In this document: one piece after another, positions 24,462 to 41,058 of the stretch
Layout of the letters: each line of letters starts with the position of its first letter
Numbering within the stretch: the stretch's first letter is position 1
Virus record (IMG/VR): IMGVR_UViG_3300025575_000014
Location: 1,393 to 65,392 of that record
Source of the DNA: a virus
Taxonomy: Duplodnaviria > Caudoviricetes
Strand: one strand, 5' to 3'
DNA length: 64,000 bases
Position numbers and translations under genes: made by a program
Notes under the pieces: generated by a model
Database searches by the model: none
Told to the model about the DNA's origin: nothing
What the model saw: only the letters and a program-made list of their open reading frames with translations

Positions 24462-24938
24462 TTATTTATCGTCCATGTTGTCTATGTATAGCTTACATAT
24501 TATATTGACTATTTCATTTCTACTGTACCCGCCTTTACTCTTCGCTAATTTATCCAGTTTATCAGCCAACGCAATATCCATGACAATACCGAAAGCTTTA
24601 GTCTTAACTCTAGCCTTAGCTTTAATAGGTATGTCTAATTGTAGCTTATCGCTTAGCTTATGGTCTAGTTTTTCTTTTGGTCTATGGCTTAGTTTTTTCT
24701 TCTTGTCAACAATTGGAGTATTGTCTTTTTTATCCTCTTGTGGTATGTTTGTTTTGACGTACTGCTTAGATATAGAATCGTATATATAGCTAGCCTTTTT
24801 GAAATTTCTTGCTATACTAGTGCGACCTATGCCTAAATAGTGCGCCGCTTTTGTTAATGTATCACCTTTTGCAAGTAGATCATTAACATATTCTAATTGC
24901 TTTACTATCTCCATTTCCTCAAACTCCGATTTGTTCAT
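24462..24938 (-). CDS. HTH plus C-terminal RHH DNA-binding protein (plasmid-type)
   Basis: N-terminal TLTKAAHYLGIGRTSI HTH; C-terminal KAFGIVMDIALADKLDKLAKSKGGYSRNEIVNIIC RHH. Confidence 0.7.
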   Translation of the reverse strand: MNKSEFEEMEIVKQLEYVNDLLAKGDTLTKAAHYLGIGRTSIARNFKKASYIYDSISKQYVKTNIPQEDKKDNTPIVDKKKKLSHRPKEKLDHKLSDKLQLDIPIKAKARVKTKAFGIVMDIALADKLDKLAKSKGGYSRNEIVNIICKLYIDNMDDK

Positions 24939-25812: not shown

Positions 25813-26002
25813 TTATTTTTTCAAGTTCATAATTTGACCCATCGGTTTATTAATTACATTCAAACCACCTTGAAGGCATATCCCAATACTCAAATCTAAC
25901 ATTTCTAATTGCTCTTGTTTTAATCCTACTGGATATATTGTCCCATCCTTGCAATAACATAATAACTATTCCGTCTTTTGTTCCATCGGACATGTTATTC
26001 AT
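25813..26002 (-). pseudogene. Probable small gene with a +1 frameshift near 25955
   Basis: RBS and ATG give MNNMSDGTKDGIVIM; the protein-like continuation YCKDGTIYPVGLKQEQLEMLDLSIG...LKK* is one base out of frame; span 190 = 63x3+1. Confidence 0.4.
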
Positions 26003-26019
26003 TTAATAGCCCCCTCGTT

Positions 26020-26202
26020 TCAATCTTTCTTTAAGTCCCTGACCTCTTTTATCAATGTCTCATCAAGTTCTTTCATCATCTCTATACCTTTCTCGTCGGA
26101 TAATCTTCTCAATACTCTTCCTTGCCTGAACGTTAGTTTTACACCCTTAACATAAACCATATCAATAAATTTATCAAAGAGCCTTTCTTTCTCGGCATTC
26201 AT
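26020..26202 (-). CDS. Hypothetical protein
   Basis: 60-aa ORF with RBS. Confidence 0.55.
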   Translation of the reverse strand: MNAEKERLFDKFIDMVYVKGVKLTFRQGRVLRRLSDEKGIEMMKELDETLIKEVRDLKKD

Positions 26203-26803
26203 ATAAATTCCTTCTCTCGTTTATAATAAATTTTATAATTCTTAATGTATATTTAAAATTTGTTGTATCTCCGTTATTTTTAGTAAAATTACCGCCTTTT
26301 CTTTTGTTGAAATATTCTATGCAAAGGTTATAAGCATACGTATTTACGTTTGTTGTTTTTATAGTATCGAGTTTGCTTTTAAAAGTTGATAGTATAGACT
26401 TATATATGTCTATAGAGTACATTGAGTTAACTTCTAATAGCCATTGTAATATATCATCATCTAATTTTACCTCATATCTTCCGTTTTTCCTGTAACAACT
26501 TGTAGGCCCTATGAAATGATTATAATTAAGTTTTTCCGTACCCCTTTCTGTAAATCTATAATAAATATCACCAGTAAAAAATTCTGTAATGCTATATCTA
26601 TTATCCATATAATATTTTTTATTGTTTAATAGCATAAAATAATTATCTATACTATTTATTAACACTTCCTTTTTATGTTTTTTTAAAAGTGGATTAATAA
26701 ATACCTTTATTAAATTTATATTTTCTTTGTATTTTGTCTTAGATGTTTTCTCCCAGTGTTCAAGTACCAAGCTTTCATTCTTCGTTAATTTATACTGTTT
26801 CAA
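26174..26803 (-). CDS. Protein resembling the C-terminal domain of phage/plasmid replication initiators
   Basis: LVLEHWEK...LINSIDNYFMLLNNKKYY...YSITEFF resembles the IFxHWN...AIDNYA...WTLxEF domain; TTG start after GAGGGGG. Confidence 0.4.
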   Translation of the reverse strand: MKQYKLTKNESLVLEHWEKTSKTKYKENINLIKVFINPLLKKHKKEVLINSIDNYFMLLNNKKYYMDNRYSITEFFTGDIYYRFTERGTEKLNYNHFIGPTSCYRKNGRYEVKLDDDILQWLLEVNSMYSIDIYKSILSTFKSKLDTIKTTNVNTYAYNLCIEYFNKRKGGNFTKNNGDTTNFKYTLRIIKFIINERRNLYECRERKAL

Positions 26804-26809
26804 TTTTAT

Positions 26810-27455
26810 CCCCCTCTATTTATTTTATTGTATATAAGTTTTTGAACTTCTAAAATGTTTCGGGACTAAAGGAATGAAGATAGAACTCCCTCCCTCCTAA
26901 AAATTAGATTTTACTCTAATCTTCAAGAAAGTGTTAATGTTTCGTACACTTTAAGTACTCGACTTCACACCGTTATTTCTAACCAACCATTCAAAAGTAT
27001 TTCTACCTCAACTCACTCATTTAGCGCCATACATTAAGTTTTTAGTTGCTCCCTTTGCATTTCTGCAACACTTCTATATCCATATTAATGAGATTTTTCG
27101 TCCTCTCCCATACACCCAGCCATGTAGTTCACCGAGGACGTATTTCCATCTAACGAATAACAAATACAGTGCTACGCTCCTAATTGGCATTAGTATTTCC
27201 TACTGTATGAGTTTTTTAGTTTAACGAGGCATTCTTCCTTCAACGGCCTCCAATCATTTGTAAAATACAAAAACCCTTCTACAAGTGATTAACTTATAAA
27301 AGGGTTGTATTGGAGTATTAAAAGTGCTATAATTAGCTCAATAATATTCTTCTAAACGTCTTTCAAAGTGTTCTGATCACTTGATTGATTTAGCTCTCAT
27401 GGTTGGTCTTGTAAGCCAATATGAGAGTGTTGAAGATTTTTTAATTTATTCTATT
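26810..27455 (-). ncRNA. Long structured leader/ncRNA (~650 nt) with internal attenuator
   Basis: Promoter TTGTAA-N17-TATACT (27462-27490); 12-bp-stem terminator plus T5 at 27269-27304; ~440 nt downstream with no convincing ORF (longest found 38 codons, no RBS), GC-richer, several hairpins. Confidence 0.55.
27340..27442 (+). ncRNA. Putative antisense RNA to the attenuator leader
   Basis: TTGTAT-N17-(TG)c-TATAAT at 27305-27333; hairpin CTCTCAT..GTTGG/CCAAT..ATGAGAG at 27394-27427, T run at 27437-27442. Confidence 0.6.
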
Positions 27456-27500
27456 AATGGTAGTATACTACGAAATGTTGAATTTTACAATAACTTTCCT

Positions 27501-27531
27501 AATAAAAAAGAGAAAGGTTTTACCCTCTCTC
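27501..27531 (-). terminator. Intrinsic terminator (repeat family)
   Basis: GAGAGAGG-gtaaaa-CCTTTCTC-TTTTTT; 30/31 identical to 28557-28587. Confidence 0.8.
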
Positions 27532-27536
27532 AATAA

Positions 27537-28289
27537 TTAACTTTTAGTTATTTTTCTTACACCTTCAGGTGTTAATAATGTCGGCATCCTTTCGCCTAAC
27601 TTTTTGTAGTCGATCTCCTCTTTTAAATTGAAACTTTCTAGCGTCAATCTAGTTCTCAAAGTGTCTATGGAAATATCGTATTCTTCAGCTATTTCTCTCA
27701 TAGTTTTAAACCCTTTTAAATTTATGGTATTGCCAAGTTGTTTTATTATCGCATTTTTTATACAGTTTTCTGCATATAATCTTGAAGAAAATTTCTCGAT
27801 ATTTTTATCATTTCCCCAAAACTTTATAACATCTAAATACCATCTTTCATCTTCAAATATAAAACTAACCACTTTTTCATCTTTAAGATAGTGTATTTCT
27901 CCGTTTTCATCTATTATTATTGCACCATCATTTCTTCTAGTTTGATTTTCTAAACAAATTTCATCCCATTTTTTTAAAATTTTATCGCTATTATTTGAAA
28001 TTAATTCTCCCCAGTTCGGTATTTCTTGGTTTTTACTCTTTAAGTTTTCTAGTTTATAGACTAATTCATCTATGTTTATAATATCATCCTCATAATCGCA
28101 TATGGTATTAAAGCCATTTTCCCACCCTCTATCATGACGTGATGCGTAATTAGTAAGTATTGCAGTGTGTATTTTTTCAATTATCAGATCAAATACGTCA
28201 CTGACGGTTCCGCTTTTATCCAATATATTGTTTTGCTGATTTGCATACTTCGATAATTCTACTAATTGTTTCAATGTCTCTTTATTCAT
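27537..28289 (-). CDS. Hypothetical protein with C-terminal HTH
   Basis: TMREIAEEYDISIDTLRTRL HTH at the C-terminus. Confidence 0.7.
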   Translation of the reverse strand: MNKETLKQLVELSKYANQQNNILDKSGTVSDVFDLIIEKIHTAILTNYASRHDRGWENGFNTICDYEDDIINIDELVYKLENLKSKNQEIPNWGELISNNSDKILKKWDEICLENQTRRNDGAIIIDENGEIHYLKDEKVVSFIFEDERWYLDVIKFWGNDKNIEKFSSRLYAENCIKNAIIKQLGNTINLKGFKTMREIAEEYDISIDTLRTRLTLESFNLKEEIDYKKLGERMPTLLTPEGVRKITKS

Positions 28290-28291
28290 TT

Positions 28292-28489
28292 TTACACACC
28301 CCTTTTATTGTTTTTCATATACTTTAAAAATTCATAATTTCCGTTTGTTGATTTAAGGTTTTTTCTCCACGTACACCTAGCTTCTCTAAAAGTCATACAT
28401 TTAGGTATGTCGGTATCGCGTTGAACTATCTTATTTAATAGTTTTTGATATACATTCATTGATATTTGCCCCCTCTTTATTTTAAACAT
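28292..28489 (-). CDS. Hypothetical protein (probable start 28459)
   Basis: AGAGGGG RBS before MNVYQK; first gene after the consensus promoter. Confidence 0.55.
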   Translation of the reverse strand: MFKIKRGQISMNVYQKLLNKIVQRDTDIPKCMTFREARCTWRKNLKSTNGNYEFLKYMKNNKRGV

Positions 28490-32436: not shown

Positions 32437-32610
32437 TTAAAAATCTAAATCAAAATCACTTTCCTGTTTTTTTTCATTTTTCATAACTTTAACCGGCATT
32501 TCTTTTTTTATTAACCCTTTAATATAAATGCTAGGACTTAACTGAGATAAGAGAAAATTATACATGTCTTTCTCTGTTTCTTTAAACGAAATGCTAACTT
32601 TTAAAGCCAA
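32437..32610 (-). CDS. ParR-like partition adaptor (57 aa)
   Basis: MALKVSISFKETEKDMYNFLLSQLSPSIYIKGLIKKEM...DFDLDF: RHH N-terminus and acidic tail; TTG start overlaps the parM stop. Confidence 0.75.
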   Translation of the reverse strand: MALKVSISFKETEKDMYNFLLSQLSPSIYIKGLIKKEMPVKVMKNEKKQESDFDLDF

Positions 32611-33458
32611 ATTGATTCACCTCTTTTTTTAAAACCTCTGCTATTGGCAAATATTGAATCTTCTATTAATTGAACATTAGGTATTCTATTTTTAAACGCT
32701 TTATGAAGCATTATAGCTCCACCACCAACTAACATAATGTCTAAGGTCTTGATACTATACCCAACTTGTAACTCATTCACAAGCCCTTCTACATAGCTTT
32801 TAAATATATCTAATGCAAAACCAATATTTCTATCTTCTCCATATATTTTTAATCCATTTTTAATTAATCTTGGTGCATCATCAGCTTTTAGATCAAGTGC
32901 ATATTTGCTATTAACCATTTTTATAAAATCTGAATATAAATTTAAGGTCCCAATAGGCAAACTATATGGTTTTTTAACTTTTTTATTTTCTAACAATGCG
33001 ATATCAGTTGTTCTACCTCCGATATCTACAATAACACCGTTAAATTCTTTGTTTATTAAAGCAGCAATGCCCTCTGGATATACTTCTATATCTTCAATTA
33101 TTAGCTTTCTTTCAATCCCATTTAAACCAATATTCTGCATCCTGTCTTTTAATAATAATTCTTTAAAAGCATTTTTATCTTCTTTGTATTGACTAAGAGG
33201 TAAACCCACACAAATCTGATTATTTATTTCATCCGTACTCATTGCTACCGCCGCAAGAAACATTTCTTTAATATATTCTTTTTTAATCTTACGGTATTCA
33301 GTATTATATGAACCTTCTTCCATATAAAAAGTACCATCCATGGTTGTTAACGCAATGGAACTGTCAAGTATATTGTCCGTCTTTGCAACTTTAGACGTAA
33401 AATTAACACCCTTTGAGGTTTTTGTTGCATAATTACCTAAATCCACACCTATTATCAT
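32601..33458 (-). CDS. parM: ParM/StbA-family actin-like partition ATPase
   Basis: Phosphate-1 GVDLGNYATK, VYPEG, phosphate-2 IVDIGGRTTD, adenosine LVGGGA, connect FANSRGF. Confidence 0.92.
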   Translation of the reverse strand: MIIGVDLGNYATKTSKGVNFTSKVAKTDNILDSSIALTTMDGTFYMEEGSYNTEYRKIKKEYIKEMFLAAVAMSTDEINNQICVGLPLSQYKEDKNAFKELLLKDRMQNIGLNGIERKLIIEDIEVYPEGIAALINKEFNGVIVDIGGRTTDIALLENKKVKKPYSLPIGTLNLYSDFIKMVNSKYALDLKADDAPRLIKNGLKIYGEDRNIGFALDIFKSYVEGLVNELQVGYSIKTLDIMLVGGGAIMLHKAFKNRIPNVQLIEDSIFANSRGFKKRGESIWL

Positions 33459-40317: not shown

Positions 40318-40331
40318 ATCAAAAGGAGTGA

Positions 40332-40523
40332 TTGTTATTGAGAAAAGTTATAGTTGATGCAATTCGAGAACTTAAATACATGATAGACGAAGAACCGGAG
40401 GAATCTTTTGAAAATGCTAAAGAAATGGAAGATTGTATATATGCCTATAACGGTTTAAGTATTATTCAAAAAAGATTAATAGATTGTATTCCAGAAACAG
40501 AAATAGAAAGGGATGATTATTGA
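40332..40523 (+). CDS. Small acidic protein
   Basis: 63 aa, AAAAGGAGTG RBS. Confidence 0.65.
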   Translation: MLLRKVIVDAIRELKYMIDEEPEESFENAKEMEDCIYAYNGLSIIQKRLIDCIPETEIERDDY

Positions 40524-40717
40524 TGAAACCGTCAGAATTAGTTAATTTGAATGATTACAACAATTTATTGGATACGTGGTTATTCGATAAATACGAACTT
40601 GATGGATGGGGAGATTATTACGATTCAATGAAAAAATTAGGTTGGAATGAAAACAAAATATATAAAGAATTTAAAATAATACAGTTAGAATTTGAAAAAG
40701 ACGTAGAAATAGATTAA
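40520..40717 (+). CDS. Small acidic protein
   Basis: 65 aa, coupled to the previous gene. Confidence 0.65.
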   Translation: MMKPSELVNLNDYNNLLDTWLFDKYELDGWGDYYDSMKKLGWNENKIYKEFKIIQLEFEKDVEID

Positions 40718-40737
40718 ATTAAAAGGAGTGGTTATTA

Positions 40738-40917
40738 ATGTTATTAAAAATAGATATTGAAATCGAGGATGGATTATTGAAATGTATACCCTTAGATAAA
40801 TTAGTGAACGAAACATTACTGCAAACACTTTACAAAGAAGAAAAAAATAAAAACATTGGTTCTTTCAAGTTAAAAGTAGAGGAAATAAAAAAGGCCACAA
40901 TTAAGCAGCCCTCATAG
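40738..40917 (+). CDS. 59-aa protein
   Basis: Manual ORF with AAAAGGAGTG RBS. Confidence 0.55.
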   Translation: MLLKIDIEIEDGLLKCIPLDKLVNETLLQTLYKEEKNKNIGSFKLKVEEIKKATIKQPS

Positions 40918-40925
40918 AAAAAAAT

Positions 40926-40958
40926 ATATCAAAGGACATTTCGCGTGTCCTTTGATAT
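40926..40958. terminator. Terminator hairpin between the early cluster and the convergent lysis cassette
   Basis: 13-bp perfect stem ATATCAAAGGACA/TGTCCTTTGATAT. Confidence 0.75.
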
Positions 40959-41058
40959 TATATGCAGAAATTTTAAAAGTGATTGTATTTTGTTTATGAT
41001 ATATTTGTATTATGTTTATAATTTAATTGTAATTTATTTATAATATTTCTGTAATGAA

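What the first reader, a model, noticed from the sequence alone, without database searches (positions are those of the whole stretch)
26810..27260. ~440-nt GC-richer, ORF-free, multi-hairpin region: candidate large ncRNA or RNA-primed origin
Seen on the minus strand: stems TACAGT/ACTGTA enclosing CTAAT/ATTAG, CGTCCTC/GAGGACG, GTTGC/GCAAC with a TGCA-GAAA-TGCA tetraloop, ATTAGA/TCTAAT, then a purine run GGAGGGAGGGAG shortly before a gene resembling a replication-initiator C-terminal domain. This is one of the longest gaps without a convincing ORF in a gene-dense genome. Inference: either an undescribed replicon using a folded primer RNA (ColE1 RNAII-like logic, G-rich R-loop) or an ornate phage ncRNA (ROOL/GOLLD class). 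I cannot assign it to a known family.
Basis: partly seen in the sequence, partly recalled or inferred. Interest (0 to 1): 0.72.

Follow-up and report, generated by a model that had tools for sequence, protein, structure and literature searches.

The report
Antisense-gated structured RNA, probable plasmid replicon
The gene-free stretch is the body of a roughly 640-base non-coding RNA unit, switched by a small antisense RNA, that this Clostridium phage-plasmid shares with Clostridium plasmids lacking any recognisable replication protein, so it is most likely an RNA-based replication origin rather than a gene leader or junk.

Summary
The ORF-free, mildly GC-richer stretch is real. It is the 3' two-thirds of one 733-nt non-coding module (26804-27536, minus strand).

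The 5' third (27262-27490) is a conserved cassette: sense promoter, two hairpins, opposing antisense promoter and intrinsic terminator. Eight aligned copies from Clostridium plasmids and phage-plasmids show 18 compensatory pairs.

The finding's own region matches no Rfam family and has one detectable homologue, in the 9.95-kb C. botulinum plasmid pCLJ2. That alignment is about 60% identical, has indels not divisible by three, 57 shared base pairs with none broken and 12 compensatory, and an identical 16-nt purine tract.

Downstream genes differ in every relative, so the module stands alone. In other carriers the same cassette precedes a 600-870-nt covarying RNA found in 117 Clostridium plasmid records. 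These include a 3.3-kb plasmid encoding only a relaxase and a pentapeptide protein.

Best reading (about 0.45): an antisense-gated replication RNA with ColE1-like logic that maintains the prophage as a plasmid. Function is inferred, not shown.

The neighbouring "Rep-like" ORF is an orphan. ROOL/GOLLD membership is not supported.

This scan reached a similar Rep-less clostridial replicon reading on two other genomes (AI notes, not independent evidence).

The parts
27462..27490 (-). Sense promoter, TTGTAA-17 nt-TATACT. Predicted transcription start is near 27455.
   Evidence: Consensus scan. A promoter sits at the same place in every homologue. Transcription is not shown.
27394..27427 (-). Leader hairpin 1 (12 pairs), with the loop UACAAGA conserved in several copies.
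   Evidence: Alignment A3 of 8 copies. Eight of the 12 pairs show compensatory changes.
27352..27393 (-). Leader hairpin 2.
   Evidence: RNAalifold on A3 with compensatory changes. The whole leader folds with z = -4.75.
27305..27333 (+). Antisense promoter, TTGTAT-17 nt-TATAAT with a TG extension. The predicted countertranscript of about 100 nt runs from about 27340 to the T-run at 27437-27442 and is complementary to hairpins 2 and 1.
   Evidence: Read from the sequence. A TTGAAA/TTGCAA/TTGAAT-17-TATAAT/TATACT/TACAAT promoter is found at the same place on the opposite strand in all homologues, although the surrounding sequence has diverged (read). Expression is not shown.
27262..27306 (-). Intrinsic terminator/attenuator: a 15-bp stem followed by a U-run.
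   Evidence: Terminator scan. The stem is kept through wholesale sequence replacement in pCF007-C, p5BKT015925, pCDC3875 and pCLJ2.
26886..27261 (-). Body of the non-coding RNA, which is the finding itself. Conserved helices: 27139-27134 with 27105-27100; 27126-27123 with 27114-27111; 27051-27043 with 26989-26981; 27038-27034 with 27011-27007; a GAAA-capped hairpin at 27007-26996; and a 17-bp helix, 26931-26915 with 26908-26892.
   Evidence: Pairwise alignment with pCLJ2 (A6): 57 pairs, none broken, 12 compensatory, against 0-4 in the slid controls. No ORF. No Rfam hit.
26885..26900 (-). Invariant purine tract UUAGGAGGGAGGGAGU. Its 5' half is the 3' arm of the 17-bp helix.
   Evidence: Identical over 16 nt in pCLJ2. 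A shorter UAGGG(U/A)AAA sits at the equivalent place in L001, L050 and L052.
26835..26850 (-). 3' boundary motif GAAGTTCAAAAMCTTA, a near-palindrome of the form TTGAA-n-TTCAA.
   Evidence: Exact in L050 and L052, with related forms in L001 and pCLJ2.
26174..26803 (-). 209-aa orphan ORF (TTG start, GAGGGGG ribosome-binding site). It is a neighbour, not a conserved part of the module.
   Evidence: No family hit and no relatives. Downstream genes differ in every homologue.

Best explanation
26810-27260 is the structured body of a non-coding transcript of about 640 nt on the minus strand. Transcription starts at the promoter at 27490-27462. A roughly 100-nt countertranscript from the plus-strand promoter at 27305-27333 pairs with the two leader hairpins and decides whether RNA polymerase stops at the terminator (27306-27272) or reads on into the body. 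The body folds into several helices. It ends in a 17-bp hairpin that half-buries an invariant purine tract, followed by a pyrimidine run and a conserved boundary motif.

I read the whole module as a replication unit that needs no plasmid-encoded initiator. The long RNA would act at or as the origin, as a pre-primer or R-loop former in the manner of ColE1. The antisense RNA would set copy number. This would let the prophage persist as a plasmid next to its ParM partition genes.

Shown: the non-coding nature; the conserved cassette with covariation; structure-conserving homology to pCLJ2; independence from downstream genes; and carriage by plasmids without a recognisable Rep.

Inferred: transcription, attenuation by the antisense RNA, and any role in replication.
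For: (1) The 5' cassette is conserved in 8 aligned copies, with 18 of 36 pairs compensatory. The antisense promoter is retained in all of them.

(2) The body aligns with pCLJ2 with 57 pairs, none broken and 12 compensatory. Indels of 1, 2, 4, 10 and 32 nt exclude a shared reading frame.

(3) Folding is strand-asymmetric: z = -2.17 on the sense strand against -0.69 on the other.

(4) Downstream genes differ in each relative: the orphan ORF here, a 44-aa ORF in pCF008-C, an apparently ribbon-helix-helix-type gene (read by eye, no family search) with its own promoter in L052, a sigma factor in p5BKT015925, a small regulator in pCLJ2, and a strong terminator in pCF007-C.

(5) The same cassette precedes a 600-870-nt RNA with 25 compensatory pairs among 4 sequences. 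That RNA occurs in 117 Clostridium plasmid records. One is a 3.3-kb C. perfringens plasmid whose only proteins are a MobV relaxase and a pentapeptide-repeat protein. Another is a 5.6-kb C. baratii plasmid with no Rep family hit.

(6) pCLJ2 and p5BKT015925 have no Rep-family ORF. MOB-suite reports a replicon type for none of the carriers except pCW3.

(7) The module lies beside or near partition genes. ParM follows it in pCDC3875, and a ParM-like gene lies at 32601-33458 here.

(8) In pCF008-C the only two perfect DnaA boxes in 38.6 kb lie within about 60 nt upstream of the module's promoter. L050 and L052 each have one at the same place.
Against: The window's own copy has no DnaA box within one mismatch inside the module.

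The window's body is alignable to only one other sequence, so the covariation rests on two sequences, and the tested structure was derived from them.

pCW3, which by my recollection of published work replicates through its own Rep protein, also carries a divergent piece of the long RNA. The RNA family therefore need not always be the replicon.

A DUF4250-like HTH protein accompanies the module in 4 of 8 elements, including this window at 24462-24938. It could be an unrecognised initiator.

The phage also has other replication-type genes elsewhere.

A constitutive-looking strong terminator inside a primer transcript has no precedent in ColE1.
Confidence: 0.45

Rival explanations
1. It is a stand-alone structured RNA with a function other than replication. 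Candidates include plasmid incompatibility or immunity, control of conjugation or establishment in a new host, or an anti-defence or defence RNA. The antisense cassette would simply tune its level.
For: The related long RNA is far more ornate than a primer needs to be: it has GNRA-capped covarying helices and long invariant blocks. It also gives weak full-length matches to the orphan throat-1 motif (30.6 and 23.5 bits). pCW3-type plasmids, typed with a known replicon cluster, also carry a piece of it. Several carriers encode relaxases or T4SS parts nearby. As background knowledge, antisense-driven attenuation also controls conjugation in the enterococcal plasmids pCF10 and pAD1.
Against: It does not explain how the 3.3-kb and 5.6-kb plasmids replicate without any initiator. 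It also does not explain why DnaA boxes flank the promoter in three relatives.
Confidence: 0.25
2. It is a long regulated 5' leader of the downstream 209-aa gene, with pT181/Inc18-type antisense attenuation of an mRNA. The hairpins would serve only mRNA stability or translation control.
For: There is no strong promoter between the terminator and the ORF, only weak 9-10 of 12 matches. The ORF follows the module directly and has a good ribosome-binding site. In pCF008-C a small ORF also follows directly.
Against: The downstream gene differs in every relative. In L052, L050 and p5BKT015925, by my reading of the sequence, it has its own promoter. In pCF007-C the RNA ends at a strong terminator with no ORF. 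The ORF is an orphan, while the RNA is conserved in pCLJ2 in front of an unrelated gene.
Confidence: 0.2
3. It is non-functional spacer or decayed coding sequence, and its hairpins are chance.
For: Most local hairpins fold no better than shuffles. The overall z-score is only -2.2. No sequence relative was found in the phage or viral-contig searches tried, or by the single pattern scanned against genome contigs.
Against: There is about 60% identity to pCLJ2, with an invariant 16-nt tract, no broken pairs among 57 and 12 compensatory changes. No reading frame is shared. The position behind a conserved regulatory cassette is the same in all relatives.
Confidence: 0.07

Closest known systems
ColE1/pMB1 origin (RNA II pre-primer controlled by antisense RNA I)
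   Same: A non-coding transcript of about 550-650 nt. A roughly 100-nt antisense RNA is made from a promoter about 110 nt inside it and ends near its start. A G-rich tract lies near the 3' end. Several carriers have no plasmid initiator protein.
   Different: There is no sequence or Rfam similarity. An intrinsic terminator sits between the antisense target and the body, so control would be by attenuation rather than by refolding of the primer. The hosts are Gram-positive Clostridium. Priming has not been demonstrated.
Antisense-RNA transcription attenuation of rep mRNA (pT181; Inc18 plasmids pIP501/pAMbeta1)
   Same: A leader hairpin is targeted by a countertranscript and followed by a Rho-independent terminator. 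The elements are Firmicute plasmids.
   Different: What lies behind the attenuator is not a rep gene. It is a structured non-coding RNA, and the genes downstream are unrelated between elements.
throat-1 RNA motif (Rfam RF03110, function unknown)
   Same: The long RNA that follows the same cassette in pCF007-C and in the C. baratii plasmid gives full-length but sub-threshold matches. These share several helices and a GNRA-capped stem.
   Different: The scores (30.6 and 23.5 bits) are far below the gathering score of 124. The window's own region gives no match at all.
Rep-less theta replicon of Bacillus subtilis plasmid pLS20 (recalled from the literature, not checked here)
   Same: A roughly 1-kb Firmicute plasmid replicon that reportedly works without a plasmid-encoded initiator and is rich in dyad symmetry.
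   Different: No sequence comparison was made, and no antisense cassette is known to me there.
ROOL and GOLLD large RNAs of phages
   Same: Large, ORF-free, structured RNA loci carried on mobile elements of Firmicutes.
   Different: Neither Rfam model matches the window (E <= 10); in the relatives only the curated cut-off and weaker thresholds on some loci were tried. The size and the 5' antisense cassette also differ.

Membership tests
ColE1-type RNA-primed origin | Replication without a plasmid-encoded initiator | tested here: inconclusive
   Related carriers of 3.3, 5.6, 9.95 and 12.4 kb have no Rep-family ORF. The window's phage has other replication-type genes. A DUF4250-like protein co-occurs in 4 of 8 elements.
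ColE1-type RNA-primed origin | An antisense RNA complementary to the 5' part of the long transcript | tested here: met
   An opposing promoter with 17-nt spacing is conserved at the same position in all copies. This is sequence evidence only, with no expression data.
ColE1-type RNA-primed origin | Homology to RNA I / RNA II | tested here: not met
   No Rfam match at the gathering threshold or at E <= 10.
ColE1-type RNA-primed origin | An RNA-DNA hybrid processed by RNase H and extended by DNA polymerase I | not testable with these tools
   Needs biochemical or in vivo mapping.
pT181/Inc18 attenuation systems | A countertranscript plus an intrinsic terminator in the leader | tested here: met
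pT181/Inc18 attenuation systems | The attenuator controls a rep gene | tested here: not met
   The downstream ORF is an orphan with no Rep family hit. The downstream genes vary between relatives.
ROOL / GOLLD | A match to the curated covariance models | tested here: not met
   Window: no match at the gathering score or at E <= 10. Relatives: none at the gathering score in L057-L061, none at E <= 10 in parts of L001 and L055, none at E <= 0.05 in five loci.
throat-1 RNA (RF03110) | A match at or above the gathering score of 124.4 bits | tested here: not met
   The window gives no hit. The related long RNAs score 30.6 and 23.5 bits over the full model length.

The most novel reading that the evidence does not exclude
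Clostridium plasmids and phage-plasmids share a previously undescribed family of initiator-free, RNA-based replicons. In these, a small antisense RNA and a terminator meter out a long, intricately folded RNA that acts as the origin. This would be a Gram-positive counterpart of ColE1, built from unrelated and much more ornate RNA. The window carries a short, divergent member that keeps its prophage extrachromosomal.
Probability: 0.4. Interest if true: 0.85.

Novelty: new variant of a known kind. Interest (0 to 1): 0.66.

Why it matters
If the module is a replicon, it would explain how many small Clostridium plasmids replicate, and how at least some phage-plasmids do. This includes plasmids of C. 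perfringens, C. botulinum and C. baratii that have no recognisable Rep gene and no replicon type.

It would add a second, independent case of RNA-only replication control and initiation beside ColE1.

It would also assign a function to a large structured RNA class whose nearest catalogued relative, throat-1, is an orphan.

Finally, it would give plasmid typing schemes a missing marker, and Clostridium genetics a compact, protein-free origin.

Tried and rejected
**Rfam**
- The whole window at the gathering threshold gave nothing, and 26300-27800 at E <= 10 gave only one hit.
- That hit is a chance PrrB/RsmZ match on the terminator of the upstream gene.

**Searches with the window's own sequence**
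- BLAST of 26000-28300 against phages found nothing.
- The same query against plasmids matched only the 5' cassette.
- Seven pattern or protein scans of IMG/VR found no relative.
- The genome contigs pattern scan gave 46 hits, all of them chance.
- The first metagenome pattern found nothing. The second found L050 and L052.

**Direct homology between the window's body and other bodies**
- Local alignment to the pCF008-C body scored within the range of shuffles.
- nhmmer with the window body and with a profile of the long core found nothing in the window.
- I therefore do not claim that the window's body is a shortened throat-1-like core.

**Decayed-gene reading**
- All frames are stop-rich.
- Indels against pCLJ2 are not multiples of three.

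**Iterons**
- No direct-repeat family was found in the gap.

**Upstream 250-aa ORF as the DUF4250 partner**
- There is no significant similarity.

**Literature**
- Searches for a described Rep-less clostridial RNA replicon, for pCB102 or pCW3 replication RNAs, and for throat-1 found nothing relevant.

- The script machine was lost, so the sliding-window z-scores on both strands were replaced by strand-folding runs.

Full report
**Setting**

The window is an IMG/VR virus record of 65 kb. It carries a MobV relaxase and a T4SS coupling protein, a ParM-like gene and a cI-type repressor. It therefore looks like a Clostridium-type phage-plasmid. The finding lies on the minus strand, in a 733-nt gap between a 250-aa ORF (27537-28289) and a 209-aa ORF (26174-26803).

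**The observation**

- The gap is the second-longest stretch in the window without an ORF of 70 aa or more. The only longer one, 40318-41058, is packed with small plus-strand ORFs.
- All six frames are full of stops.
- GC is 36% over the finding and 39% over its core, against 31.8% for the window.
- The named stems are present.
- As single-sequence evidence the stems are weak. The region folds with z = -2.17 on the minus strand and -0.69 on the plus strand.
- Only the 26895-26975 segment is clearly non-random, at z = -3.57.
- The 209-aa ORF described as Rep-like has no family match and no relatives.
- No Rfam family matches, even at E <= 10.

**The 5' cassette**

Immediately upstream of the finding lie four elements:
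- a sense promoter (27490-27462);
- two hairpins;
- a strong terminator (27306-27272);
- on the other strand, a near-consensus promoter (27305-27333).

This roughly 190-nt cassette is the part that BLAST recognises elsewhere. It was found:
- in the C. estertheticum phage-plasmid pCF008-C;
- on two metagenome contigs, L050 and L052;
- in the C. estertheticum plasmids pCF007-C and pCF004-C;
- twice in tandem in the C. botulinum group III plasmid p5BKT015925;
- in C. botulinum pCDC3875;
- in C. botulinum pCLJ2.

In an eight-copy alignment, RNAalifold finds 36 pairs, of which 18 have compensatory changes. The terminator stem is completely replaced in sequence in some copies while its pairing is kept. 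The opposing promoter keeps its hexamers and its 17-nt spacing in every copy, although its surroundings diverge. The cassette is therefore a real antisense-plus-attenuator switch, as another first-stage note on this window also proposed.

**What lies behind the cassette in relatives**

There are two situations.

*Long-body class.* In pCF007-C, pCF004-C and pCDC3875 the cassette is followed by a 600-870-nt ORF-free RNA.
- In pCF007-C this RNA ends at a strong terminator.
- The RNA occurs in 117 Clostridium plasmid records.
- Four diverse copies give 78 predicted pairs, 25 of them compensatory and very few broken. They also show many invariant G-U pairs and a covarying GNRA-capped stem.
- It matches no Rfam family at threshold. 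It does give full-length sub-threshold matches to throat-1 (30.6 and 23.5 bits).
- Carriers include a 3.3-kb C. perfringens plasmid that encodes only a MobV relaxase and a pentapeptide-repeat protein.
- They also include a 5.6-kb C. baratii plasmid with no Rep hit.

*Short-body class.* In pCF008-C, L050 and p5BKT015925 the body is 350-450 nt. Three sequences give 64 pairs, 18 of them compensatory.

Across all carriers, the genes downstream of the module are unrelated to one another, so the module is a unit in its own right.

**The window's own body**

It cannot be aligned to either class by nhmmer or by a profile of the long core. With L050 and L052 it shares only its first about 30 nt and the 3' boundary motif at 26850-26835.

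A relaxed BLAST then found one true homologue, in the 9.95-kb plasmid pCLJ2 of C. botulinum Ba4 657. It sits behind the same cassette and in front of an unrelated small regulator gene.

- Over about 330 nt the two are about 60% identical.
- Indels of 1, 2, 4, 10 and 32 nt rule out a shared reading frame.
- A 16-nt purine tract (26900-26885) is identical.
- The consensus fold has 57 pairs. All are formed in both sequences. Twelve changed on both sides and 13 on one side. Slid controls give 0-4 double changes.
- The best-supported elements are the helix 27139-27134 with 27105-27100 and its inner hairpin, and the 17-bp helix 26931-26915 with 26908-26892. The 3' arm of the 17-bp helix is the first half of the purine tract.
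- A GAAA-capped hairpin at 27007-26996 becomes a three-pair stem (GAC with GUC) around an AAAA loop in pCLJ2, a change I read by eye.

With two sequences, and a structure derived from them, this is supportive rather than proof.

**Function**

I favour a replication role for the following reasons.
- The smallest carriers have nothing else that could be a replicon.
- pCLJ2 and p5BKT015925 have no Rep-family ORF.
- MOB-suite assigns no replicon type to any carrier except pCW3.
- The module sits next to partition genes in pCDC3875, and within 6 kb of the ParM-like gene here.
- In pCF008-C the only two perfect DnaA boxes in the 38.6-kb record lie just upstream of the module's promoter. L050 and L052 have one at the same spot.
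- An antisense RNA acting on a terminator is a standard copy-number device of Firmicute plasmids.

The model is that read-through transcripts fold and act at the origin, perhaps through the invariant purine tract forming a hybrid with the template. The countertranscript would limit read-through.

**Caveats**

- No transcript or replication data exist.
- The window's copy lacks a DnaA box.
- pCW3, which has its own Rep replicon type, carries a divergent piece of the long RNA.
- A DUF4250-like HTH protein co-occurs in four of eight elements, including the window at 24462-24938. It could be an unrecognised partner.

**Earlier scan notes and literature**

Two follow-up notes of this scan, on other genomes, reached a similar "Rep-less clostridial replicon RNA" reading. 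I treat them as leads. I found no paper describing this module.

Noticed in passing
L055:4190-5130 (pCF007-C); L059:3800-4650; L058:920-1900; L057:20-1080 (minus); L060:3290-4200 (pCW3): A large (600-870 nt) structured RNA with strong covariation is present in 117 Clostridium plasmid records. These include pCW3-type C. perfringens plasmids, where it lies upstream of dcm, and C. botulinum and C. baratii plasmids. No feature is listed under it in PLSDB's incomplete gene tables, and it gives only sub-threshold full-length matches to Rfam throat-1.
   Followed up: partly
L066:14038-14087 (pCF008-C; the same site as L001:3898-3947): The only two perfect DnaA boxes in the 38.6-kb phage-plasmid lie within about 60 nt upstream of the module's sense promoter. 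L050 and L052 each have one at the homologous place. The window's copy has none.
   Followed up: partly
window 24462-24938 (-): The N-terminal half of this 158-aa ORF is related to the DUF4250-family HTH protein that sits directly upstream of the module in pCF008-C (E = 1e-9). Homologues also occur in pCLJ2 and pCF007-C, but not in four other carriers.
   Followed up: partly
L061:3025-3810 (p5BKT015925): The promoter/antisense/terminator cassette is duplicated in tandem, together with about 70 nt of post-terminator sequence, ahead of a single RNA body.
   Followed up: no
window 26174-26803 (-): This 209-aa ORF has a good ribosome-binding site and a TTG start. Among 5.8 billion proteins its only match is an identical copy on a 2.3-kb metagenome contig.
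   Followed up: yes
window 40318-41058: This is the only longer stretch without an ORF of 70 aa or more, but it is not non-coding. It holds several short plus-strand ORFs, each preceded by a Shine-Dalgarno-like site.
   Followed up: partly
L057 (3.3-kb C. perfringens plasmid pZ1322HCP0005-4): This complete circular plasmid has just a MobV relaxase gene that spans the record's start, a pentapeptide-repeat protein and a 1.15-kb non-coding module. It is a natural minimal test case for the replicon hypothesis.
   Followed up: partly
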